64,000 bases of DNA from a virus (taxonomy: Duplodnaviria; Caudoviricetes): positions 96,001 to 160,000 of the IMG/VR virus record IMGVR_UViG_3300021387_001157. One strand, given 5' to 3'. Numbering within the stretch: the first letter of the stretch is position 1; each line of letters starts with the position of its first letter. Positions 30,563 to 59,835 of the stretch are shown one piece after another. The translations under genes were made by a program, and so were the position numbers. The notes beneath the pieces are model-generated. The model had not been told where the DNA came from. It did not search any database and saw only the letters and a program-made list of their open reading frames with translations.

Positions 30563-31243
30563 TTAGTCTTCAGGTACAATATAACCGAAAACTGGAATTG
30601 TGTCTGTCGTAGTAACAGTGTCTTCAATAATGGTGTCGTTCACATCGAGAGTGTCTACCATAATTGTGTCATTCACATCGAATCCGTCAAACACGGGGTT
30701 TGTGGCACTCACACTACCAGTCATTACATCAACATAGACTTGACACTGCTTATTACCAAAAATGTATTGTGGGTTACAGTCTTTGGGTCCGACCTCCTTA
30801 CGGATGACACAATGTCTGCTGTGTGGCTTTTGGCAGTTTGCCTTATACATCTGTGACAATGCCTTTTCAAGATTAACCTCGAATGGTGAGAATGTGTCCA
30901 TTCTGTTATCACCTACCCATATGCCATACCTTTCTTCGGTGACCATAGTGTCTCTTGTGTGTGCAATAAGAACAACTTTTTCTACGAAATTTGCACTATC
31001 GACAGCGGTAACAATCTTGTAGATGTTAGCCACACTGGCGACTTCGTGTCCGTTGTCTTCGTCAAGAAAATCGACGAAATCAATGCAGCACTCGAGCCAC
31101 TGATAGTCATCATTTGCATAGTTTTCAGCCATATACTTGGCATCTTCCTGGTTGATTTTTTCAACCCACCCGTCCTTGTTACATGATGTTACAAACATTG
31201 TAGCAAGGAGCATAATCACACTTAAAAAAATGTTTTTCTTCAT
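30563..31243 (-). CDS. Lipoprotein, paralog of 48747-49400
   Basis: Lipobox VTSC; WLECCID and KPHSRHCVxRKE are shared. Confidence 0.75.
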   Translation of the reverse strand: MKKNIFLSVIMLLATMFVTSCNKDGWVEKINQEDAKYMAENYANDDYQWLECCIDFVDFLDEDNGHEVASVANIYKIVTAVDSANFVEKVVLIAHTRDTMVTEERYGIWVGDNRMDTFSPFEVNLEKALSQMYKANCQKPHSRHCVIRKEVGPKDCNPQYIFGNKQCQVYVDVMTGSVSATNPVFDGFDVNDTIMVDTLDVNDTIIEDTVTTTDTIPVFGYIVPED

Positions 31244-31276
31244 AGATTTTTTTTGTTAATTTGTTTATGTTATTTA

Positions 31277-48746: not shown

Positions 48747-49400
48747 TTACCAATTGAAAGCATAACCAAATCTTTCGTCTGGACGATTTGGAACTGGATA
48801 CACGGGGTTATACGATGAAACAGAACCATCAACAGAAGATACATATGCTTGTACGTCTTGATTTCCAAAGATGTATAAAGGTTCCTTTTCGATTTGACCA
48901 GATTCTTTACGAAGGACACAGTGTCTTGAATGTGGTTTTACACAATTTGCTCTCATCATTGCATCATAGGCGTGTGCAAAATCAATTCCCATAGGGTTAA
49001 ATTTGTTCATTGGTTCGTCACCAAGCCAAAGACTGCTCGGAATTGAGTCATAGATTGTCGAGTCTACAGTATGTGTTATCAAATATATATCCATATCTCC
49101 AGACATTGAATCGGGTGCAAACGTAACAACTGAGAATATGTTTGTAACACTTGCAATATCGAAAACATCAGAGGAATCAATCCAGTCCTTTGAATCAATA
49201 CAGCACTCGAGCCAACGATAGTCTTTGAAATTTACAGTCATATACTCATTGTCAAGCATAATTGCTTTTTCAACGTCGACACCGGTAACATTATATGTAA
49301 GTGTATCATTTTCACCATCATTCTCTTGATGGCAAGAACTGCAAGAAATCGTAAAGACGGTAAGAAAAACCATCATCATAACAGTAAAAATCTTTTTCAT
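48747..49400 (-). CDS. Lipoprotein, paralog of 30563-31243
   Basis: Lipobox TISC; shared Cys motifs. Confidence 0.75.
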   Translation of the reverse strand: MKKIFTVMMMVFLTVFTISCSSCHQENDGENDTLTYNVTGVDVEKAIMLDNEYMTVNFKDYRWLECCIDSKDWIDSSDVFDIASVTNIFSVVTFAPDSMSGDMDIYLITHTVDSTIYDSIPSSLWLGDEPMNKFNPMGIDFAHAYDAMMRANCVKPHSRHCVLRKESGQIEKEPLYIFGNQDVQAYVSSVDGSVSSYNPVYPVPNRPDERFGYAFNW

Positions 49401-49525
49401 TTTTTGTGTATTTTTGTATATTATTATTTATTGTTTTGTAATCTAAATATAACAAAAAAGGTGTGATTTTTCACACCTAGATACAAATCTGACTTGGTTT
49501 TTTCATATTGTTATATTTGATTTTG

Positions 49526-49896
49526 TGACACCGGTGGGACTCGAACCCACGACCCCAGCATTAACTTACCACACTTGCTTTTATACAAGTCATCTCATTG
49601 AGACGTTGTAGTCTGGACTATTTCTTAACCATGCTTTACAGTTTAGGTCTCCACCTATATAGTCTCTACGCCATTTACACATTTCTGTGCTTTAGAGAGC
49701 CGTCGCCAAAGTCTATGTCACCATAGACGAGGTTTCCGTTTGTTAGGGTGGATTCTACATCCCGACAGCATTAATTGTCGTTTTCTCCTTTCAGAAAGGA
49801 TGCACTCTTTTTTGATTATGTTCTTTTCCATAAACTTTGTTATGAAAAGCACAAATCAGTCAAAGTGCCGTGCTCTACCTACTGAGCTACGGTGTC
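49526..49896 (-). tRNA. tRNA-Lys(TTT) interrupted by a group I intron
   Basis: Exons CGGCA-CTT and TTAA-TGCTG join to give loop CTTTTAA. Confidence 0.88.
49565..49862 (-). ncRNA. Group I intron (298 nt) after U34
   Basis: R-like GTAGAGACTATA, S-like AAGAAATAGTCCAG, terminal G. Confidence 0.88.
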
Positions 49897-50467
49897 AAAT
49901 TGACAGAAGTTCTTCAAGTTTTTCATTTTTTGTTCTGACTTGTGTCGACAAACTTGTGTATCGGTGAATACTTTCATTCGGCTCTGTCAAACCGTCCAAA
50001 AAAACTATCACAACTCTGGACTCTCTTCAGCATCCCTTTGAAGTCTTATGAGTCTTCGATTCTCGACAGGACACCACTCCCAAAGAAAGTGTTTTAGAGC
50101 TCATTATACACAATCTATCGAGGAAAAATCTGCTTCGGATGCATCGTGGGTTATCCCCTACCACGGGTAGAATGTTTATCGTCTCACATACCATTGACGT
50201 TAGCGAAACTATTTTGCATGACTCGGGGACTCGAACCTCCATCTCCACAGTTGGACCCGTGTTGTTCTACCGAATTAAACTATCGCCACTAGACGAGGTT
50301 TTGGACACCTCGTTTGTGATAATGGGTGGATTCGAACCACCATAGCCAAGAGTCTTTTCGTCTCAGTCAAGTATAGACCATGCTATCGTGGATAGTCTAT
50401 ATGACCTTCAAACGATTACTAATTAATCTTGTAGCACATCCTATCTGCTTCACACTATCATATTTTG

Positions 50468-50606
50468 CAGGAGTGGGAGGATTCGAACCACCGTCTACGG
50501 TTTTGTGACTATATATCAATTTCTCAATATATAACCTAGAATTAAAGGCTCTCACAGGACCTCACCCTGTATGGAGACCGTCATTCTGCCACTGAACTAC
50601 ACTCCT
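50468..50606 (-). tRNA. tRNA-Trp(CCA) with a 68-nt insert in the anticodon loop (50504-50571)
   Basis: ACGGT-CTCCA[insert]AA-ACCGT. Confidence 0.8.
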
Positions 50607-50726
50607 ATATTTGATACGACACTGAGATTCGAACTCTAAACCCCTTCACCCATTTAAGGGAGTTATCTGACCGTCGTCAGTCCCAGCATTGGGAGTGTGC
50701 TACTATTACACCATATCGTAATTTTG

Positions 50727-50800
50727 GGTGGTAAGTGAGATTCGAACTCACACTTCCGGTTCCACAGACCGACGTGCTAACCATTAACACTATAACCACC
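50727..50800 (-). tRNA. tRNA-His(GTG), G-1 encoded
   Basis: Loop CTGTGGA; G-1:C73. Confidence 0.88.
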
Positions 50801-51755: not shown

Positions 51756-51763
51756 ATATTCTG

Positions 51764-51940
51764 TGGTGAGGGTAGGATTCGAACCTACGAACTCCGAAGA
51801 GGGCAGATTGCTCTGTATGCCAGACTCGAACTGACTATTTATGTTTATCATAAATTCTCCCGAATGAGTTTATACAGAGTTTGATTTTCAGTTTTCTCTG
51901 TATTACAGTCTGCTGCCATTAACCACTCGGCCACCTCACC
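51764..51940 (-). tRNA. tRNA-Tyr(GTA) with a 94-nt insert in the anticodon loop (about 51810-51903)
   Basis: GCAGA-CTGTA[insert]AA-TCTGC; long variable arm. Confidence 0.82.
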
Positions 51941-52130
51941 AAATTTGCAAGCTACAAACGTTTTCTCGGAACTTAACTTGCTGTGTTGTACTTCCACAAT
52001 AGTTTTGGGTGCTTTATCCTCACACCTCGTGGTTCTGATTTATCTAGTCAATTCAGAACAAACCCTGCTTTGCTCCGTTCCAATGCACTTATTGTCTTTG
52101 GCACTAGAATCGCTTAACAGTACAATCTTG

Positions 52131-52207
52131 TGCAGACAATGGGACTCGAACCCATAACCACCCACCGGTTTAGAGCAGGCACTCTACCATCATTGAGTTA
52201 TGTCCAC
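52131..52207 (-). tRNA. Atypical tRNA, possible CTA (amber) anticodon
   Basis: CTCTAAA in an imperfect anticodon arm; an alternative fold gives a 9-nt loop. Confidence 0.45.
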
Positions 52208-52212
52208 TTTTG

Positions 52213-52286
52213 TGGGACCGAGCCGATTTGAACGGATACCTCCAGATTTTCAGTCTGGCGTGACACACCAGTTACACCACAGTCCC
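52213..52286 (-). tRNA. tRNA-Phe(GAA)
   Basis: Loop CTGAAAA. Confidence 0.85.
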
Positions 52287-52321
52287 AATTTGAGGTTTTT
52301 GATGAACCTCTTAACATTTTG

Positions 52322-52444
52322 TCGGGAGGGTGGGACTCGAACCCACGACCACGGCTACCCAAAAGCTATTAGAAAAACGTTGCTGTTTGATTCTTTACCA
52401 AGAATCTATCATTTACGTGCTCTAACCAACTGAGCTACCTCCCG
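52322..52444 (-). tRNA. tRNA-Pro(TGG) with a 49-nt insert at 28/29 (52367-52415)
   Basis: CG[insert]GCT-TTTGGGT-AGCCG. Confidence 0.8.
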
Positions 52445-52549
52445 TTCTTAAAAAAAGCAGACCCGCTTACCAACTACTTGACCGAGGGCTGTCTCCCCTT
52501 TCGAGGTGCCTTCGTTGGTGGACTTGAACCACTCCCATATCTGCTATTG

Positions 52550-52624
52550 TGGGACCCCAGGGAGTTGAACCCCAGCCTCCGGATTTTCAGTCCGGCGTAC
52601 AATTACCACCTATACGAGAGTCCC
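52550..52624 (-). tRNA. tRNA-Phe(GAA), second copy
   Basis: Loop CTGAAAA. Confidence 0.85.
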
Positions 52625-52971
52625 AAAAAAACGAGTATATACTTATGAATCCTCGTCATCCTATATACCCCACGACCAAACTAAACGTGTTGACCTGCTC
52701 CATAGTTTACTTAATGGCCTCCAGTATAAGCGAATGTACTCGTTTGTGAAATATGGTGGGACTTGAACCCACGGCCTCCCCCGGCGGGGGGTGCTCTACC
52801 AACTGAGCTACACAATCACTTCCGAATCACATGGAAAATGGTTCTTTATAGTACCAATAACCTTGTTTCCACCAGTTAGGTCAGGAACATACCTCCGCCT
52901 ATTTCTACCAAGACGGCTAATCCTCATCCTTTTATATCGCCCGACGAGGAACGGGCTATCACATGTGAGAG

Positions 52972-53045
52972 TGGACCACGATGGGATTCGAACCCACGAC
53001 CCTCTGACTGCCAGTCAGATGCTCTACCGACTGAGCTACGAGCCC
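52972..53045 (-). tRNA. tRNA-Ala(GGC)
   Basis: G3-U70; loop CTGGCAG; one extra nt in the acceptor 3' strand. Confidence 0.85.
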
Positions 53046-53141
53046 ATGAAAATTGAGTTGTTTAAGGTCTAACTCAAGACTAACGACCGGGGCTGTCATC
53101 GATTCCACCATCCGATTTTATACGACATCGGAAAACGTTAG

Positions 53142-53261
53142 CGGAGAGAGTGGGACTCGAACCCACGACTACGGTCGTGACAGGACATTGAAGAACGTTG
53201 CTGTATGATTCTTTTTCAAGAATACTCTATTTACGTGTTCTACCAACTGAACTACCTCTCC
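53142..53261 (-). tRNA. tRNA-Asp(GTC) with a 47-nt insert at 28/29 (53187-53233)
   Basis: CG[insert]GTC-CTGTCAC-GACCG. Confidence 0.8.
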
Positions 53262-53406
53262 ATTTTGAGTTGTTTTAAGTCCAACCCAAACGACTGGGGC
53301 TTGCCGGTTTGAATCCGACGAGCGGTTCCACCATCCGATTTTATACGACATCGGAAAACGTTAACAAGAATCCATAGAATAGTTCAGTAAAATATAGAAA
53401 AATATT

Positions 53407-53735
53407 CTAATATCTTACATTTTGTTCGAGGTTCATAGAACTTGCTACTGCTTGTTCTCCCACTCGCTTAAATTCGGGTGAACTCAACCCTATTATTCGT
53501 TTTCCTTCTTCTAGTATATTCTTTGCTGCGTTAATATCTCTGTCGTGTACAACACCACATTCAGGACAAAACCCACTCTCTATCAGAGAGTTGTAATAAG
53601 TCATTTTTATAACCACAGCAATAACATGTCTTTGATGAAGGATAAAATCTATCTATAAAGATTACTTTTTTATCATTCCAAGATGCTTTGTATTGAATTA
53701 TTTGTTTTTAACTCACAGAAACTAACATCCAGTGT
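53407..53735 (-). pseudogene. tnpB: IS200/IS605 TnpB C-terminal remnant, frameshifted
   Basis: QIIQYKASWNDKKVIFIDRFYPSSKTCYCCG in one frame, CPECGVVHDRDINAAKNIL in another. Confidence 0.85.
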
Positions 53736-53745
53736 TTTATCTTAG

Positions 53746-53819
53746 TGGACACAGATGGGAATCGAACCCATGACTACCTGTTTGCAAAACAGGAGTTCTA
53801 CCAACTGAACTACTGGCCC
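53746..53819 (-). tRNA. tRNA-Ala(TGC)
   Basis: G3-U70; loop TTTGCAA; one extra nt in the acceptor 3' strand. Confidence 0.85.
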
Positions 53820-53877
53820 ATGAAAATTGAGTTGTTTAAGGTCTAACTCAAGACTAACGACACTAACTTACCAATTG

Positions 53878-53962
53878 TGCCCAAGACAGGACTTGAACCT
53901 GCACTCCCTAAACGGGAACCAGCCCCTCAAGCTGGCGTGTCTACCAATTCCACCACCTGGGC
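53878..53962 (-). tRNA. tRNA-Leu(GAG)
   Basis: Class II body; loop TTGAGGG. Confidence 0.9.
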
Positions 53963-54019
53963 ATTTGTTGTTTTTAATGCTTCTATATATTTTTTAGTTC
54001 ATTTTTTTAGTTCAAATTG

Positions 54020-54090
54020 TTGGAGTAACTGGATTTGAACCAGTACTATATCCTCCAAAGGGACATGTGCTGCCATTACACCATACTCCA
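54020..54090 (-). tRNA. tRNA-Gln(TTG)
   Basis: Loop CTTTGGA; U1-A72. Confidence 0.88.
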
Positions 54091-54114
54091 ATGTCCAATG
54101 TTGTTTTATCTGCA

Positions 54115-54151
54115 AATAAAAAATCCCACACTTTCGAAAGAATGTGTGAGA
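54115..54151 (-). terminator. Terminator hairpin just upstream of tRNA-Gln
   Basis: TCTCACAC...GTGTGGGA followed by a U-tract. Confidence 0.65.
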
Positions 54152-54213
54152 TGTTGGATATATGTTGAGATTAAAATGTGTTTCTAAAAAATCTTACAAA
54201 TGATACAAACAAA

Positions 54214-54309
54214 TCACACAACTATGGACACAAATAGGATAATCGCCATCTGATAAAACCAGTAGACGAGTCCTTTTTTAAATCCCTTATGTTGTTTATT
54301 TGTATTCAT
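54214..54309 (-). CDS. 31-aa small ORF, candidate leader peptide
   Basis: MNTNKQHKGFKKGLVYWFYQMAIILFVSIVV, read manually. Confidence 0.4.
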   Translation of the reverse strand: MNTNKQHKGFKKGLVYWFYQMAIILFVSIVV

Positions 54310-54340
54310 ATCTTCGTTATTTATGTAAGTTTCTTTTCTA

Positions 54341-54877
54341 TTATTTATGTAAATTAATTTCATATGGTTTTATTGAGCGTTTAACTCTTGCACCACTTCC
54401 ATATATAAGACTATCTGCAAGTGTATTTCCGACTTCTGGAAGACCATTACGTCTTTTGTTGTTTAACTGGTCAGTATCTGGTTTCAATTCCTTTATTTTT
54501 ATAACCACAGAATATACAACCACTTTATCATATGGATAACCAAACTCTCCGAAAGTTTTTGCAAAATCTGGATAAACAGAAAGATATACATATCCACATT
54601 CAGACTGAAAACTTTTTTTCCTTTTTAGACTTGTGGTTAAAATACCCTTATCCATTATAGGATTTTTTTCACTTGTACCATGATAAAGTCTTATATAGTC
54701 TTCCTTGTGTCTTCTCAACCATTTGTTAAACTCATCAACAAGTTTTTCGTTATATTCACCATTAAATGAAGTGAAGAACTTAGAAGTTTCCTCATCATCT
54801 AATACATCGTATGTCTTTGGCTCTCTATAACTACCATAGTATAATTCATTAATAAATTCATCAAACTTTTTAATCAT
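54341..54877 (-). CDS. Hypothetical protein with ADP-ribosyltransferase/Tpt1-like motifs
   Basis: RLYHGTS...I...G...YVYLS...A..F; N-terminal IKKFDEFINE leader typical of large-phage proteins. Confidence 0.5.
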   Translation of the reverse strand: MIKKFDEFINELYYGSYREPKTYDVLDDEETSKFFTSFNGEYNEKLVDEFNKWLRRHKEDYIRLYHGTSEKNPIMDKGILTTSLKRKKSFQSECGYVYLSVYPDFAKTFGEFGYPYDKVVVYSVVIKIKELKPDTDQLNNKRRNGLPEVGNTLADSLIYGSGARVKRSIKPYEINLHK

Positions 54878-54911
54878 ATTTATGTTTGCTTTATTTATTT
54901 ATGAATTTTTG

Positions 54912-54985
54912 TACTCCGGACGGGACTCGAACCCGTAATCTCCACCGTGAAAGGGTGGTGTCCTAACCAATTAGACGACCGGAGC
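54912..54985 (-). tRNA. tRNA-Glu(TTC)
   Basis: Loop CTTTCAC. Confidence 0.92.
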
Positions 54986-55054
54986 ATAGTTGTACCGATG
55001 TCGCTCGATACGGGCGGGTGAAAAATCACCATCTTGCCAAGTCGGGTTTTTATG

Positions 55055-55127
55055 TCGGGCAGAGAGGACTCGAACCTCCGACCCCTTGGTCCCAAACCAA
55101 GTGCTCTACCAACTGAGCTACTACCCG
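55055..55127 (-). tRNA. tRNA-Pro(TGG), intact
   Basis: Loop TTTGGGA. Confidence 0.92.
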
Positions 55128-55583
55128 TTTTTACTAAAGTGTGTTGTGAATACACTTATAGTCTAACACATAACCTATTTCAGTGTATTCCAAAGTGAAT
55201 ATCTCTTTGACCGGTTTGCTACCATACAAATTCGGTCAGAAGGACTGACCATTTGTGTGTTTTTTTCCACACCAGCACTCCTTTAGGGAAACATTCTCTT
55301 AACATATTTCCCGTTCTCGGTCGTTTCCAATTCCGATACTAGGTAGTTGTCTTACATCACCTGAACATCCGGTTGACAACTGGGCGAGCATAAATTTTCC
55401 GGATATCTTTTCCAAACTTTCATTGCTTATAGGAACAATATTTGGGTTTCGGGTTTCACTTATTCAGACTCCAATTGATATATAATAGAGTGTGAACGTG
55501 AACATTTCATATATATAATACCATAATTTCTCTGCCTATAACACCTCGGATGAAAATTCCGAGCCCTATTCCTTATAGTATTG

Positions 55584-55656
55584 TGGACCCACTGGGAATC
55601 GAACCCAGACCTAAGGCTTGCAAAGCCCTCGTGCTCGCCGTTATCACCATAGGCCC
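55584..55656 (-). tRNA. tRNA-Ala(TGC), second copy
   Basis: G3-U70; loop TTTGCAA. Confidence 0.85.
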
Positions 55657-55723
55657 ATATCAAGACTTTTTGACACAAATTCTTCAAATCAACTTAGAAG
55701 AAGTGATATTATTTGTTGCATAA

Positions 55724-55846
55724 CAAGATTCTTTAATTAACTTCATAAAAAGTATCTTTTCAAATTTGTGCCGGACGGTCTTGTCTTCGTCCTTAAACGT
55801 TTACATGATGCTTATAATTTTGTAAATCGTTGCTGTTTGAATCTTT
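55724..55846 (-). ncRNA. Free-standing ACAGCAA stem-loop RNA, long form
   Basis: AAGATTC-AAACAGCAA...GAATCTTG. Confidence 0.55.
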
Positions 55847-55860
55847 AACAAACAATATTG

Positions 55861-55932
55861 AGCCCTCTATTGGAATCGAACCAATATCTGAAGATTACAA
55901 ATCTACTATAATAACCTTTATACTAAGAGGGC
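55861..55932 (-). tRNA. tRNA-Thr(TGT)
   Basis: Loop TTTGTAA. Confidence 0.82.
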
Positions 55933-55937
55933 TTTTA

Positions 55938-55999
55938 CAAGGTTCACTTTTATGAGTCGAACATAATAGAACCGAAAAACAGTTGCTGTATGAACCTTT
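55938..55999 (-). ncRNA. Free-standing ACAGCAA stem-loop RNA
   Basis: AAGGTTCA-TACAGCAA...TGAACCTTG. Confidence 0.65.
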
Positions 56000-56004
56000 A
56001 ATTT

Positions 56005-56838
56005 AGTGAGCAATGAGCAGTCTCCCACTCAAAACCCAATTTCCTCTTTTGGAAAGCCTGAGAACTTAGGCAAAGTTGTCACCATTACACGACAGTTGGA
56101 CATCGTTGTTCACAGTATGTATTTCTACATCCTAGGTGACATGTGCTCCAGTTTTGTGAAAACTGACAAACTCTTACTGCTTGATATCGTAGATTTCCGT
56201 TCTCCACCGACCGTCTTGCATAAGACTTCTGAAGATGCCTCCTCATTGTTCGATGATTACTTGTACTTTCTTGTCTTCAACCTTGCAAGTCTCCGACACC
56301 CCCGTGTTACAGAGGGACAAGCACATTTTCTACCAAACAGTGTCGTGCTCTTTTGCTTTTCTTTCAACATTTTTACCCTAATAAATAATTGAATCTTAGC
56401 TTTTTTTGATAACTGTTTTTAGAAAGATGTGGCACGACTTTGGTCATTCCTACCTTTTGAGTAAGACCCAACCAACACCTTTCTATGTTTCATCGTTCCC
56501 CAACGACTCCACATTCTCCGTTTCATCCCATACAATTTCTCACACAGAACTAATCCTTTGTAATACTTGCAATTGACAGGGAAATCTTTCACAAGTACCT
56601 GCTAAAGACCTCTATTGTACTTTCATACTCAAACCAGGTTTTACCCGATTGTCATCTACTTCATCCTCATCATTTGACATTGGATTTCCCACAGATAACG
56701 TGTCTTTTCACTTTTCAACAGATTGCATCTTTCGATACAACGCCACATCCCGTTTATCTCGGATATGACTTTATCCCATTGCTGGATTATCCTTTTGTCA
56801 AGTCCGAAGACTCAACACGGTTCTGAAAGCGAACCTTT
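56005..56838 (-). ncRNA. Candidate large structured RNA (GOLLD-like by size and context)
   Basis: About 830 nt, no minus-strand ORF, higher GC, many hairpins, directly downstream of tRNA-fMet. Confidence 0.5.
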
Positions 56839-56843
56839 TTTTG

Positions 56844-56915
<72 letters not shown>

Positions 56916-56925
56916 ATCTTTTATT

Positions 56926-57480
56926 TTACACAAAGAACAAAATACCACATTCTATCATATCTTCTACTTTACAAAGAAAATCTGTTATATTTTCGTCTTT
57001 TATTTGGTTTATTTTCAAGTTATTACGATTTGCATTTAAGATAATAAACTCTTTCCATTTCTTCATATCTATCATACATCTTTTGATAATATTTGTTGTA
57101 TTCCTTTCAACAAATGTACAATAGACATAATCACATTTTGTGATAATCGACCAACCAAAATTTCCATGAGAAATAATCTCAAACGGAAGATTACCAGTAT
57201 CAAGAGCACGACCATCAGATTTAACCTCTATCTTTTTGTATCGTTCTCTTTCAGATAAAACTATATCCAATTCAGGTAAACTATCACCATATTCATTATC
57301 TATTACAAAATCGATATCAATCAACTGATACTCCTTTATATCTGAAACGTCAAATATCTTTCTGCCAACATTCTGAGGTTTACTTGTAAACCATTCAATA
57401 AAATCTTTCTCACTTATTTTCCCGTCATTCAAGTCTTTCTTGAAATTAGGTTTTCTACTTGTTTTCTCTAAAACGGCCAT
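56926..57480 (-). CDS. Putative PD-(D/E)xK (restriction-like) endonuclease
   Basis: YQLIDIDF...KIEVKSD....TGNLPFE. Confidence 0.6.
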   Translation of the reverse strand: MAVLEKTSRKPNFKKDLNDGKISEKDFIEWFTSKPQNVGRKIFDVSDIKEYQLIDIDFVIDNEYGDSLPELDIVLSERERYKKIEVKSDGRALDTGNLPFEIISHGNFGWSIITKCDYVYCTFVERNTTNIIKRCMIDMKKWKEFIILNANRNNLKINQIKDENITDFLCKVEDMIECGILFFV

Positions 57481-58277
57481 ACGTCAATATCATAATTCGT
57501 AATCACAATTTCACCACCCTTTTTACATTCTTTTCCACCAACATTCGTCATACTGTATACAAAATCAAAACTATAAATGTTGTAATCCTTATACAAATCT
57601 CTTATGTCAGAAGATTCATCGTAACTTATCATAATCTTATTATTTCCAGAGTGATTTTTAACCCATTCAAACAACATATTATGATTAAAGTTTTTATGAA
57701 GTTCTCCCTTATCTCCATATAGTCCGATTTTATTGTTTTCTTTATATGGCGGGTCAAGATAGATAAAGAAACCATCAATATCAATATAATCGTCAAGTTT
57801 AATAAAATCAGTATTCAAAAACGTTGTCCTTTGAATGACACTGGAAATATCCTTAATCTTGTTAATTCCATCAATTGTGAAATTCCGATTGAATGCTTGT
57901 GAAGAATAATTGCTATTCAATCCACTAAATGATGTCTTATTTGATATGAAAAAATGACTTGCTTTATTTCTATCAAGATTCAAGAACTCATTCTTAAATG
58001 TTTCACAGTTAAACTGGTTTTTTATCTCCAGACACTCATCAATAATACTCTGTGGGTTATTTTTAACAGTGTTGTAATAGTTTATTAACTTACAATCAAT
58101 ATCGTTTGCATATATCACTTGTGGATAATACTTCTGTATGATATACAACAAAACACTACCACCACCCGTAAACACTTCAAGATATTTATTGACTTCATTT
58201 GGAAAGAATCTATCCAAAATCTTTGTCATTTTGGACTTTCCACCAGGCCAACGTAAATTAGATTTTACTTTACTCAT
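57468..58277 (-). CDS. dam: DNA adenine methyltransferase (D12/Dam family)
   Basis: LRWPGGKS, EVFTGGGSV, YLDPPY, MISY, EIVITNY. Confidence 0.92.
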   Translation of the reverse strand: MSKVKSNLRWPGGKSKMTKILDRFFPNEVNKYLEVFTGGGSVLLYIIQKYYPQVIYANDIDCKLINYYNTVKNNPQSIIDECLEIKNQFNCETFKNEFLNLDRNKASHFFISNKTSFSGLNSNYSSQAFNRNFTIDGINKIKDISSVIQRTTFLNTDFIKLDDYIDIDGFFIYLDPPYKENNKIGLYGDKGELHKNFNHNMLFEWVKNHSGNNKIMISYDESSDIRDLYKDYNIYSFDFVYSMTNVGGKECKKGGEIVITNYDIDVWPF

Positions 58278-58281
58278 ATAG

Positions 58282-58354
58282 CGGGGATGGTAGGACTCGA
58301 ACCTACGACCCAGTGGTTAACAGCCACTTGCTCTACCTGCTGAGCTACGTCCCC
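58282..58354 (-). tRNA. tRNA-Asn(GTT)
   Basis: Loop CTGTTAA. Confidence 0.9.
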
Positions 58355-58486
58355 AAAAATGATTTTTCTTTACCGTTGAAAACCTAAAACGTAATAGTCT
58401 TTACTCCACACCATCAAGCGACGACTCTTCGGATTACTCAGTAATTTACCTTTATATACTCTGGTCAGTCGTTGACCAACAGCTGC

Positions 58487-58562
58487 TGGCGGTCTATACG
58501 AGATTCGAACTCGTGTCACCGCCGTGACAGGGCGGCATGCTAGGCCTCTACACCAATAGACC
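58487..58562 (-). tRNA. tRNA-Asp(GTC), intact, CCA encoded
   Basis: Loop CTGTCAC. Confidence 0.92.
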
Positions 58563-58589
58563 ATACCTATTTATGTTTAGGAAATTTTA

Positions 58590-58737
58590 CAAGGTTCACT
58601 TTTTTATCTTGTTATCTGAAATATGGTTCGGATTAGATTTTTTTATTGCTGTATGAACCTTTAAATGTATGCAAGAATCTTTTCATGAATGATTCAAAAA
58701 CTCTGAATTTCATAAAATTGTTGCTGTATGATTCTTT
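58590..58737 (-). ncRNA. Two tandem ACAGCAA stem-loop RNAs (58590-58662, 58672-58737)
   Basis: AAGGTTCATACAGCAA...TGAACCTTG and AAGAATCATACAGCAA...GATTCTTG; covarying stems. Confidence 0.7.
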
Positions 58738-58831
58738 ATCTACACGATTTCCTTATTTATTATTTTTCCCTAACAATATAAATATAACAAAAAAATTCAA
58801 GAAAATTCAATTTTTTTGAATTTTTTTTTTG

Positions 58832-58903
58832 AGAAGATGAGCAGAATCGAACTACCATCCCCAGCGTGGCAAACTAGTACACTAACCATTGTGCTACATC
58901 TGC
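58832..58903 (-). tRNA. tRNA-Gly(GCC)
   Basis: Loop TTGCCAC; one acceptor mismatch. Confidence 0.75.
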
Positions 58904-58907
58904 ATTT

Positions 58908-58997
58908 TGGCGGAGAGGGAGGGATTCGAACCCACGGGGGCTGTTACACCCCAACGGTTTTCAAGACCGCCGCCATAAACCACTCGGCCACCTCTCC
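58908..58997 (-). tRNA. tRNA-Ser(TGA), CCA encoded
   Basis: Class II body; loop CTTGAAA. Confidence 0.92.
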
Positions 58998-59124
58998 AAT
59001 TGCCGTTTCTGTCTTTGTTGCAGAAGACTAACGGCTGTGTGGAAACTGTCTCCTGACATTACACTGCAACAACGTATGTCTCTTGAAACGTGATGACAAC
59101 CACAATCCTTCACGATTGATTTTG

Positions 59125-59242
59125 CAGGGTGGGTAGGATTCGAACCTACGTCACGGCTACCAAAAAGCAAAGAAAACGTATTGCTGTAAGATTCTTTCAC
59201 AAGAATCAAAAATACGTGTCCTAACCACTAGACGACCACCCA
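59125..59242 (-). tRNA. tRNA-Gln(TTG) with a 46-nt insert at 28/29 (59169-59214)
   Basis: CG[insert]GCT-TTTTGGT-AGCCG. Confidence 0.8.
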
Positions 59243-59244
59243 AG

Positions 59245-59331
59245 CGGAGAGGGAGGGATTCGAACCCCCGAGCCCCTTACGGGACTACCGGTTTAGCAAA
59301 CCGGGGCATTCGGCCACTCTGCCACCTCTCC
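59245..59331 (-). tRNA. tRNA-Ser(GCT)
   Basis: Class II body; loop TTGCTAA. Confidence 0.9.
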
Positions 59332-59337
59332 AAATTA

Positions 59338-59396
59338 CAAGGTTCTTCTTTCGACTTTTTCCACAAATCTTTAAGAAAGTTGCTGTATGAACCTTT
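59338..59396 (-). ncRNA. Free-standing ACAGCAA stem-loop RNA
   Basis: AAGGTTC-ATACAGCAA...GAACCTTG. Confidence 0.65.
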
Positions 59397-59399
59397 ACT

Positions 59400-59750
59400 C
59401 TGTGAGAGTTGAACAATCTCTCGTTCAATTCCCATCTCCGTTGTTTTGGTACAAGGAGAAAACCTGCCCTTAAAGACATTGGTCTAAACTACCACCGATT
59501 AGGCAGCAGCGAGCATCACCATTTCGTTGGTGTTGTTGTTAAAGTTGCCATTTACTGACAAGATGAGTCTCTACGCTTTTCATAATGATACAGCATCAAA
59601 TCCAAGTCATCCCCATGTTACCTCGATAGTTCTGTCTCGTATAGACCGCCCAATGTTGAATGTTTTTTCTACACTGAACAAACTGGTGGAGATGTTGGGG
59701 TTCGAACCCAAGTCTACCATACTTTCCTAAAAGTTTCAAACGAAACCCAT
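59400..59750 (-). ncRNA. ssrA: Circularly permuted (two-piece) tmRNA
   Basis: Acceptor piece ends CATCTCC-A-CCA at 59684; coding piece starts GGGGATG at 59614; G3-U70; tag frame 59549-59499 encodes GNFNNNTNEMVMLAAA*. Confidence 0.85.
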
Positions 59751-59835
59751 TTGTGATGTCACGGGAGTCGAACCCGTCAAAATTCCAAAGACATCTGATT
59801 CTATTTATGTTTTTTTATTTTCGAAATTTTTTTAG

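What the first reader, a model, noticed from the sequence alone, without database searches (positions are those of the whole stretch)
50468..50606. tRNA-Trp with a 68-nt structured, non-group-I insert just 3' of the anticodon
Seen: ACGGT-CTCCA[TACAGG...GTCACA]AA-ACCGT. The insert has hairpins ACAGG/CCTGT and TATATA/TATATA and is too short for a group I core. Like the Tyr insert it begins with (A)TACAG and ends with CA, and ATACAG also starts the ACAGCAA motif. It is the only Trp tRNA in the window. Inference: a eukaryote/archaea-like short loop intron in a phage, sharing a recognition signal with the Tyr insert.
Basis: partly seen in the sequence, partly recalled or inferred. Interest (0 to 1): 0.72.

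Follow-up and report, generated by a model that had tools for sequence, protein, structure and literature searches.

The report
Short conserved intron in phage tRNA-Trp
The only tryptophan tRNA gene of this giant rumen phage is split right after its anticodon by a 68-base insert whose first 34 bases are almost unchanged in related phages; it belongs to the little-understood short introns of phage tRNAs, for which no cutting enzyme is known in bacteria.

Summary
A tRNA-Trp(CCA) gene lies on the minus strand at 50468-50606 and carries a 68-nt insert after anticodon base 36.

- **Boundaries.** An intron-less homologue in another giant phage (L115) fixes the boundaries to within one A.
- **Conservation.** The insert is present in three phage lineages. 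The exons changed at 13 of 71 sites, including four compensatory base-pair swaps. The first 34 nt of the insert changed at 2 sites. The 3' part is variable and largely missing in one lineage, where the intron is 46 nt.
- **What it is not.** It is not a group I intron. The splice sites do not form a bulge-helix-bulge. I found no EndA, RtcB, MazF, PIN or RNase III in these phages, one of them 96% complete.
- **Closest relatives.** It shares its site (36/37) and a 5' "UACA" hairpin with this phage's tRNA-Tyr intron and with the "enigmatic" Lak megaphage introns. It lacks their tRNA-like domain.
- **Likely mechanism.** An unidentified nuclease probably cuts it out, and the phage's RNA ligase/kinase/phosphoesterase genes beside the tRNA array reseal the exons. 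Splicing is not shown.
- **Earlier notes.** The scan noted a similar 68-nt tRNA-Trp insert in another genome, and tRNA-shaped mini-introns in many phages.

The parts
50468..50606 (-). tRNA-Trp(CCA) gene including the insert (A1 at 50606, discriminator G73 at 50468; no encoded CCA)
   Evidence: ARAGORN; Rfam RF00005 at 50.4 bits; sequence
50572..50606 (-). 5' exon, tRNA positions 1-36, ending CUCCA
   Evidence: aligns with intron-less L115
50504..50571 (-). 68-nt insert/intron under the 36/37 reading (UACAGG...GUCACA); 50505-50572 under the 35/36 reading
50539..50571 (-). Conserved 5' module; with A36 it forms the 34-nt block AUACAGGGUGAGGUCCUGUGAGAGCCUUUAAUUC
   Evidence: 0/34 differences to L001 and 2/34 to L011/L023
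50553..50571 (-). Hairpin 1: UACAGG / CCUGUG with 7-nt loop GUGAGGU, starting at the 5' splice site
   Evidence: same type of hairpin in Lak introns
50547..50553 (-). GAGAGCC, able to pair with 5' exon GG(U)CUC; pairing CUC:GAG leaves C35-A36-U in a 3-nt bulge holding the 5' splice site
   Evidence: predicted; all columns invariant, so untested by covariation
50507..50536 (-). Hairpin 2: 13-bp stem with GNRA loop (GAAA). Kept in L001, where the loop is GAGA, four wobble pairs become Watson-Crick and two pairs are broken. Absent in L011/L023
50468..50503 (-). 3' exon, tRNA positions 37-73
51763..51940 (-). Related case in the same array: tRNA-Tyr(GUA) with a 94-nt insert that also starts (A)UACAG as the 5' strand of a hairpin

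Best explanation
This is a genuine, long-maintained intervening sequence in a working phage tRNA-Trp gene. It is a stripped-down member of the short non-group-I introns of giant gut and rumen phage tRNAs.

**Shown.**
- The insert sits precisely at 36/37.
- The cloverleaf is under selection.
- The first 34 nt (a UACAG hairpin plus GAGAGCCUUUAAUUC) are almost invariant.
- The 3' part is dispensable.

**Inferred.**
- The precursor is cut at both ends by a protein endonuclease not yet identified, from phage or host. This enzyme would recognise the invariant 5' module at the 5' site. It would place the 3' cut by distance from the anticodon stem.
- The two halves stay held together by the tRNA body.
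- The phage's own RNA end-healing and sealing enzymes then rejoin them to restore the loop CUCCAAA.
For: 1. **Precise insert.** Intron-less L115 tRNA-Trp matches the 5' exon at 92% and the 3' exon at 85%, and the gap is exactly the 68 nt.
2. **Function of the tRNA body.** Between lineages there are four double compensatory pair changes (3:70, 27:43, 28:42, 50:64) and none in the slid controls. A1-U72, G73 and the CCA anticodon are invariant. These are bacterial TrpRS identity elements by established knowledge.
3. **Only source of Trp.** In relative G001 (96% complete) 19 amino acids have intron-less tRNAs, and Trp is supplied only by the interrupted gene. The same holds in this contig.
4. **Constraint on the module.** It shows 2/34 changes against 13/71 in the exons (binomial P 0.038). 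Against L001 it shows 0/34 changes, while the 3' part shows 8/34 (Fisher P 0.0025).
5. **Family link.** The Lak Tyr, Phe, Thr and Gly introns all parse at 36/37. Each starts within one base with a UACA (UAACA in Phe) hairpin whose distal pairs covary. L011 Trp shares the 9-mer ACAGAGUAA with Lak Phe.
6. **Sealing kit beside the array**:
   - CCA-adding enzyme with HD domain
   - RNA ligase PF09414 (E 1e-24)
   - a 525-aa protein with the PHA02142 OB-fold domain
   - a second weak PF09414 hit
   - AAA_33 kinase
   - two metallophosphoesterases
   - a weak Trl1-CPD-like hit
   The ligase (86% aa identity) and the CCA enzyme (74%) flank the array in G001 too.
Against: - There is no RNA evidence.
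- No endonuclease candidate was found. EndA, RtcB, Tpt1, PemK/MazF, PIN and RNase III are all absent from G000-G002. ORFs inside and beside the array have no informative Pfam or PHROG hit.
- Healing and sealing kits are common in large phages as counter-measures to host anticodon nucleases, so their presence is not specific to splicing.
- Near-total conservation of 34 nt is more than a typical protein-binding site needs.
- This array also holds tRNA-shaped RNAs that carry foreign modules and may never be spliced (earlier notes e1-5750681 and e1-5750688).
Confidence: 0.45

Rival explanations
1. The insert is never removed. The tRNA-Trp body serves as a stable, correctly processed scaffold that displays the 34-nt module as a protein handle, decoy or regulator, like the other tRNA-shaped RNAs with foreign modules in this array.
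For: - The module is more conserved than the tRNA itself.
- The same array holds tRNA-like genes with ACAGCAA hairpin modules and 'tRNA-shell' RNAs (earlier notes e1-5750681 and e1-5750688).
- No splicing nuclease was found.
Against: - Removing the insert restores a perfect 7-nt Trp anticodon loop with U33 and A37, identical to intron-less L115.
- Trp would then be the one amino acid missing from otherwise complete phage tRNA sets.
- The insertion site and 5' hairpin match Lak introns, for which alleles with and without the intron exist (PMC6784885).
Confidence: 0.2
2. The 34-nt module is a new very small self-cleaving RNA. It cuts at its own 5' edge (the 5' splice site, held in a 3-nt bulge). 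The 3' end is trimmed or cut separately, and the phage ligase kit joins the exons.
For: - Nearly every base of the module is fixed.
- It starts exactly at the splice site.
- Two folds are possible: helix / 3-nt bulge / hairpin, or an H-type pseudoknot (ACAG/CUGU plus RAGG/CCUU) in which both observed substitutions are tolerated.
- The kinase and phosphoesterase kit suits 2',3'-cyclic phosphate and 5'-OH ends.
- Gut phages do use small HDV-like ribozymes for tRNA end processing (PMC10879173).
Against: - No Rfam ribozyme family matches even at E up to 10.
- The order of helices cannot be threaded onto an HDV-like fold. Only 7 nt lie between the two strands of the first helix.
- There is no hammerhead core.
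- 34 nt would be smaller than any known natural self-cleaver.
- With four sequences there is no real covariation.
Confidence: 0.15
3. Excision is done by the ordinary tRNA end-trimming enzymes (RNase P and RNase Z) followed by a ligase, as earlier agents of this scan proposed for tRNA-shaped phage mini-introns.
For: - In the Lak Gly and Thr introns and in this phage's Tyr intron, the 3' splice site lies one base after an acceptor/T-arm minihelix. That is where RNase Z cuts, by established knowledge.
- Hairpin 1 has T-arm dimensions (5 bp plus a 7-nt loop). The same stem, UACAGG...CCUGU, is a real T-arm in tRNAs of G001 and G002.
- A different, cloverleaf-like insert sits at the same site of tRNA-Trp in G003.
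Against: - The Trp insert has no T-loop and no acceptor-like closing helix.
- Hairpin 2 ends 2-3 nt before the 3' site and is absent in L011/L023.
- RNase P acting on the exon-intron minihelix would cut inside the anticodon stem.
Confidence: 0.1
4. It is an archaeal/eukaryal-type intron cut at a bulge-helix-bulge by a splicing endonuclease.
For: The 5' site can sit in a 3-nt bulge next to a 3-4-bp helix (UCUC:GAGA), cut after the second bulge base as in a BHB half-site (the geometry is from established knowledge).
Against: - The sequence before the 3' site (..AGUCACA in the window..AAAAAUA in L011) cannot pair with exon CUCC, so there is no second bulge at the true 3' site.
- The site is 36/37.
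- No EndA or RtcB is present in four phage records.
Confidence: 0.03
5. It is a dead gene or a DNA-level selfish insertion (a miniature hairpin transposon) with no RNA-level removal.
For: There are two hairpins near the ends and no target duplication, as in IS200/IS605-type elements.
Against: - There is one copy per genome.
- No Y1 transposase is present.
- The cloverleaf is maintained by compensatory changes across lineages whose CCA enzymes are only 74% identical.
- The module pattern found no other host site in IMG/VR, in JGI metagenomes or in 185,579 genomes. The one exact genome match and three metagenome matches are chance hits outside any tRNA.
Confidence: 0.05

Closest known systems
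'Enigmatic' tRNA introns of Lak megaphages (Devoto et al. 2019, PMC6784885, Table S6)
   Same: - Short (79-114 nt there, 46-68 nt here), with no Rfam hit, in phage tRNA anticodon loops.
- All parse at 36/37.
- The intron begins within one base with a UACA (UAACA in Phe) hairpin, followed by an A/U-rich stretch.
- Sequence is highly conserved between phages.
- L011 Trp shares ACAGAGUAA with Lak Phe.
   Different: - Lak introns, and this phage's Tyr intron, carry an acceptor/T-arm minihelix that ends at the 3' splice site.
- The Trp insert has a plain GNRA hairpin instead, or nothing in L011.
- It has an extra invariant GAGAGCCUUUAAUUC segment.
- No Trp intron is listed for the Lak phages.
Archaeal/eukaryal tRNA introns (BHB motif, EndA/TSEN, RtcB or Trl1)
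   Same: - Short, protein-dependent and located in the anticodon loop.
- The 5' site can sit in a 3-nt bulge.
- A kinase, phosphoesterase and ATP-dependent ligase set like the fungal heal-and-seal route is encoded nearby.
   Different: - The position is 36/37.
- There is no second bulge.
- No EndA, RtcB or Tpt1 is present.
Group I introns in bacterial and phage tRNA genes (e.g. Azoarcus tRNA-Ile and Agrobacterium tRNA-Arg at 36/37; by knowledge)
   Same: - Same insertion site class.
- This phage also has a 298-nt intron in tRNA-Lys(UUU) that earlier notes read as group I.
   Different: - At 46-68 nt it is far below a group I core.
- There is no terminal G and no U at the end of the 5' exon.
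- There is no Rfam hit.
Theta (minimal HDV-like) ribozymes next to phage tRNAs (PMC10879173)
   Same: A small RNA element abutting a phage tRNA segment exactly at a processing site.
   Different: - Theta ribozymes lie 3' of the tRNA, not inside it.
- The HDV-like fold cannot be threaded here.
- That paper reports no introns.

Membership tests
Lak-type short phage tRNA introns | Insert in the anticodon loop between positions 36 and 37 | tested here: met
   The window Trp parses as CUCCA|UACAGG...ACA|AA. The Lak Tyr, Phe, Thr and Gly genes, re-parsed from their sequences, all fit 36/37.
Lak-type short phage tRNA introns | Intron starts with a hairpin whose 5' strand begins (W)UACA | tested here: met
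   - Trp here: UACAGG/CCUGUG.
- Lak: UACAGG/CCUG, UACAAG/CUUGUA, UACAAUC/GAUUG, UAACAG/CUGUA.
- Window Tyr: AUACAGAG/CUCUGUAU.

Lak-type short phage tRNA introns | tRNA-like acceptor/T-arm minihelix filling the 3' part and ending at the 3' splice site | tested here: not met
   There is no TTCRA-type loop in the insert. The 3' part is a 13-bp GNRA hairpin in the window and L001, and 12 nt of unstructured sequence in L011.
Lak-type short phage tRNA introns | Alleles or homologues with and without the insert differ by a precise indel | tested here: met
   L115 intron-less tRNA-Trp against the window.
BHB introns (EndA/TSEN) | Two 3-nt bulges separated by a 4-bp helix, holding both splice sites | tested here: not met
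   Only a possible 5' half-site exists. The bases before the 3' site cannot pair with exon bases 32-35 in either lineage.
BHB introns (EndA/TSEN) | Splicing endonuclease and RtcB or Tpt1 available | tested here: not met
   PF01974 and PF01139 are absent in G000-G003. PF01885 is absent in G000-G002. Controls rang in the expected reference genomes. Host enzymes were not examined.
Group I intron | Conserved catalytic core (P3-P8, about 200 nt or more), terminal G, and U.G at the 5' site | tested here: not met
   The insert is 68 or 46 nt. It ends in A or C. The 5' exon ends in A36 (or C35). No RF00028 hit at E up to 10.
Known small self-cleaving ribozymes (hammerhead, HDV-like/theta, twister, pistol, hatchet, hairpin) | Match to the family covariance model or core motif | tested here: not met
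   cmscan with permissive filters on 50250-50730 gave only tRNA and three chance hits. Read by eye, there is no CUGANGA...GAAA core shared by the lineages.
Functional bacterial-type tRNA-Trp | Cloverleaf kept by compensatory change; CCA anticodon, G73 and A1-U72 | tested here: met
   Four pairs changed on both sides, and 96% of cells are paired. A1, U72, G73 and C34-C35-A36 are invariant. Charging was not tested.
Spliced intron (any mechanism) | Mature RNA lacking the insert exists | not testable with these tools

The most novel reading that the evidence does not exclude
The invariant 34-nt module is the minimal signal of a third, so far unknown way of splicing tRNA, used by phages of bacteria. 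It would be either the docking and cutting site of a new endoribonuclease or a tiny self-cleaving RNA. Because a ligase kit reseals the cut, the junction next to the anticodon could carry a mark, such as a 2'-phosphate, that protects the phage tRNA from host anticodon nucleases.
Probability: 0.2. Interest if true: 0.85.

Novelty: new variant of a known kind. Interest (0 to 1): 0.58.

Why it matters
Bacteria and their phages are thought to have only self-splicing (group I) introns in tRNA genes. Short introns in phage tRNAs were reported in 2019 and are still unexplained in the literature I could search.

This Trp example is the smallest and simplest version I found: 46 nt in one lineage, with no tRNA-like domain. 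Two things follow.
- It argues against tRNA-trimming enzymes as the general excision route.
- It narrows the essential element to a 34-nt block that can be tested directly by mutation, in vitro cleavage and pull-down.

Finding the enzyme or RNA chemistry behind it would add a new RNA-processing pathway. It could also explain why giant phages keep RNA ligase kits next to their tRNA arrays.

Tried and rejected
- **Searches for more homologues.**
  - An exact 21-mer of hairpin 1 and a module 18-mer in IMG/VR found only L001, L011 and L020.
  - A degenerate pattern in JGI metagenomes found the same lineages plus L023 and three chance hits.
  - The module 18-mer in 185,579 genomes gave one chance hit inside a coding region.
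  - Patterns for longer UACA-type Trp introns found nothing new.
  - L002 was a false hit made of two adjacent tRNAs.
- **ARAGORN intron calls.** Most calls over about 80 loci were chimeras of neighbouring tRNAs and were discarded.
- **Endonuclease hunt.**
  - Family searches for EndA, RtcB, Tpt1, Hen1_L (its control did not ring, so this one is uninformative), PemK/MazF, PIN, RNase III and the Y1 transposase were all negative.
  - Pfam and PHROG scans of ORFs in and beside the array were uninformative.
  - The 217-aa ORF family that sits next to tRNA clusters looks like a lipoprotein, not an RNA enzyme.
  - The ligases have no PDB relative by sequence.
- **Trans target.** Complementarity of the module to other parts of the genome is at chance level.
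- **Extra motifs.** GGGUGARGG and CCUUUAAU are not enriched in the array.
- **Other ideas rejected on reading the sequence.**
  - HDV-like threading and a hammerhead core do not fit.
  - TRAP-type GAG repeats have irregular spacing.
  - RNase P use of the CCA anticodon as a mock 3' end is specific to Trp and cannot explain the family.

Full report
**What is there.** All tRNA genes of this window lie on the minus strand. ARAGORN with introns allowed finds tRNA-Trp(CCA) at 50467-50606 with a 68-nt intron. The Rfam tRNA model scores 50.4 bits over 50468-50606, with the extra bases in the anticodon loop. Read directly, the gene has three pieces:
- a 5' exon, AGGAGUG...ACGGU-CUCCA, at 50572-50606
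- the insert, UACAGG...GUCACA, at 50504-50571
- a 3' exon, AA-ACCGU...CACUCCU-G, at 50468-50503

One A is ambiguous, so the cut could equally be 35/36. The window is part of a 193,840-bp IMG/VR phage contig that is 67% complete. This is the contig's only tRNA-Trp.

**The boundaries are those of a precise insertion.** A 413-kb phage contig (L115) carries an intron-less tRNA-Trp with the same acceptor stem. It aligns to the window gene as two blocks, at 92% and 85% identity. The blocks stop at 50572 and resume at 50505, so the gap is exactly the 68 nt.

**The interrupted gene is old and under selection.** The same gene with the same insert occurs in two further lineages:
- L001/L024, on a 185-kb contig
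- L011/L020/L023/L025, on a 363-kb contig that is 96% complete

Between the window and L011 the exons differ at 13 of 71 sites. Eight of these are four double compensatory changes in the acceptor, anticodon and T stems, and slid controls show none. A1-U72, G73 and the anticodon never change. By established knowledge these are the identity elements for bacterial TrpRS.

In the 96%-complete relative, 19 amino acids are served by intron-less tRNAs, and Trp only by this gene. That pattern makes best sense if the gene yields a working tRNA. The CCA-adding enzymes of the two lineages are only 74% identical, so the arrangement has lasted through substantial divergence.

**Anatomy and conservation of the insert.** The first 34 nt, counted from the ambiguous A, read AUACAGGGUGAGGUCCUGUGAGAGCCUUUAAUUC. 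They are identical in L001 and differ at two transitions in L011.

The remaining 34 nt differ at 8 sites from L001. In L011 they are replaced by 12 unrelated bases, giving a 46-nt intron (Fisher P 0.0025 for module against 3' part; binomial P 0.038 for module against exons).

The module starts with a hairpin, UACAG(G)/(C)CUGUG, with a 7-nt loop. This hairpin has the size of a T-arm, and its stem sequence is a real T-arm in other tRNAs of the relatives. After it comes GAGAGCC, which can pair with exon bases GG(U)CUC.

With the cloverleaf enforced, the fold costs about 1 kcal/mol more than the free minimum. In that fold CUC:GAG stacks on the anticodon stem, and C35-A36-U forms a 3-nt bulge that holds the 5' splice site. 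An alternative H-type pseudoknot (ACAG/CUGU plus RAGG/CCUU) tolerates both observed substitutions, whereas extending the hairpin by G7-C15 does not. All other columns are invariant, so none of these pairings is tested by covariation.

The 3' hairpin of the window is a 13-bp stem with a GAAA loop. L001 keeps it with a GAGA loop. There, four wobble pairs have become Watson-Crick and two pairs are broken. Its absence in L011 shows it is dispensable.

**What it is not.**
- **Not group I.** It is too short, has no terminal G, and the 5' exon does not end in U. There is no Rfam hit at E up to 10.
- **Not a BHB intron.** The bases before the 3' site (AGUCACA in the window, AAAAAUA in L011) cannot pair with exon bases 32-35. 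The site is 36/37. EndA and RtcB are absent from all four phage records, with controls ringing in the expected reference genomes.
- **Not a known small ribozyme** (and reading by eye).
- **Not a multi-copy DNA element.** There is one copy per genome, no Y1 transposase, and no other occurrence in IMG/VR, JGI metagenomes or 185,579 reference genomes apart from chance hits.

**What it resembles.** Devoto et al. 2019 reported "enigmatic" introns in Lak megaphage tRNAs. I re-parsed their four gene sequences. All sit at 36/37. Each begins within one base with a hairpin that opens UACA, or UAACA in Phe:
- Tyr: UACAGG-AAACAA-CCUG
- Gly: UACAAG-AAUAAA-CUUGUA
- Thr: UACAAUC-AAUAAA-GAUUG
- Phe: UAACAG-AGUAAA-CUGUA

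The distal stem pairs covary while C-G and A-U at the base stay fixed. An A/U-rich linker follows, then an acceptor/T-arm minihelix that ends one or two bases before the 3' site.

This phage's tRNA-Tyr intron (51763-51940) has the same plan. The Trp insert shares the site, the UACA hairpin (L011 even shares ACAGAGUAA with Lak Phe) and an A/U-rich stretch, but has no minihelix. I therefore file it as a variant of that class, not a full member.

In a further phage (G003) a different, cloverleaf-like ~60-nt insert occupies the same site of a tRNA-Trp, next to an intron-less copy.

**Enzymes.** Just beyond the window's end lie these genes:
- a CCA-adding enzyme with an HD domain
- an RNA ligase (PF09414, E 1e-24)
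- a 525-aa protein with the PHA02142 OB-fold domain
- a second weak PF09414 hit
- an AAA_33 kinase
- two metallophosphoesterases
- a weak Trl1-CPD-like protein
- a NADAR protein

The ligase and the CCA enzyme flank the array in the 363-kb relative too. This set could heal and seal 2',3'-cyclic phosphate and 5'-OH ends, but such kits also serve to repair damage by host anticodon nucleases.

No phage-encoded MazF/PemK, PIN, RNase III or Tpt1 was found. ORFs inside the array gave no informative domain.

**Mechanism and odds.** I rate the readings as follows.
- **Protein-cut and ligase-sealed intron, 0.45.** Cutting would depend on the invariant 5' module, with a 3' cut placed relative to the anticodon stem, because nothing conserved lies next to that site.
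- **Unspliced tRNA scaffold displaying the module, 0.2.**
- **New tiny self-cleaving RNA acting at its own 5' edge, 0.15.**
- **RNase P and RNase Z excision, 0.1.** This is weakened by the missing minihelix.
- **Pseudogene or DNA element, 0.05.**
- **BHB/EndA intron, 0.03.**

Shown here are the precise insert, selection on the tRNA body, the conservation pattern and the family resemblance. Splicing itself, the nuclease and the role of the ligase kit are inferred.

**Limits.** Only three lineages (four distinct sequences) carry the insert, so structure inside the module cannot be tested by covariation. No expression data could be obtained. Host enzymes were not examined. The literature I could search holds no explanation of these introns after 2019.

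Earlier notes of this scan flagged a similar 68-nt tRNA-Trp insert in another genome (e1-5747214, e1-5747231) and tRNA-shaped mini-introns in many phages. I used them as leads only.

Noticed in passing
window 49525-49896 (-): tRNA-Lys(UUU) has a 298-nt intron after U34 that ends in G. There is no Rfam group I hit at E up to 1. The close relative G002 has the same tRNA without the intron (L031 3485-3558).
   Followed up: partly
window 56055-56483 (-): A GOLLD-like RNA sits inside the tRNA array. It scores 77.8 bits, below the gathering score of 150, with E 5e-19 and full model length.
   Followed up: no
window 59408-59776 (-): A permuted tmRNA scores 63 bits against Rfam tmRNA_permuted. ARAGORN gives the tag peptide GNFNNNTNEMVMLAAA.
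   Followed up: no
window 52130-52207 (-): An amber-suppressor-type tRNA (anticodon CUA) is present, although ORFs in the region read well under the standard code.
   Followed up: no
window 50317-50387 and 50612-50720 (-): tRNA-like RNAs flank the Trp gene. Each has an acceptor stem and a TTCGAAT T-arm but an aberrant middle. The first scores only 18 bits against Rfam tRNA.
   Followed up: no
window 51978-59386 (-), nine sites: A conserved motif, AAAGRWUC-WW-ACAGCAA, occurs both inside three tRNA-like genes (52386, 53204, 59187) and in spacers between tRNAs. ACAGCAA is enriched in the window, 16 seen against 6 expected.
   Followed up: partly
L003 208-345 and L032 2900-2971 (contig IMGVR_UViG_3300026549_000056): Another phage has both an intron-less tRNA-Trp and a tRNA-Trp with an unrelated ~60-nt insert after CUCCA. 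The ends of that insert pair (GUCCUU/AAGGAU) and enclose three small hairpins, giving a cloverleaf-like shape.
   Followed up: partly
L023 1929-4483: In one variant of the 363-kb lineage the CCA-adding enzyme gene is split by an inserted ORF. That ORF is homologous to a 318-aa ORF at genome 14708-15661 and is probably a mobile element.
   Followed up: no
window 48747-49400 and 30566-31255 (-): Two paralogous ~220-aa ORFs with a lipoprotein-type signal peptide each sit directly beside a tRNA cluster. A homologue has the same position in the 363-kb relative (L030 679-1326).
   Followed up: partly
L029 5222 and 6858; L031 5480: Ordinary tRNAs of the relatives have T-arms reading UACAGG-UUCGAGU-CCUGU. 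This is the same stem as the first hairpin of the Trp insert and hints at a tRNA-fragment origin of the insert.
   Followed up: no
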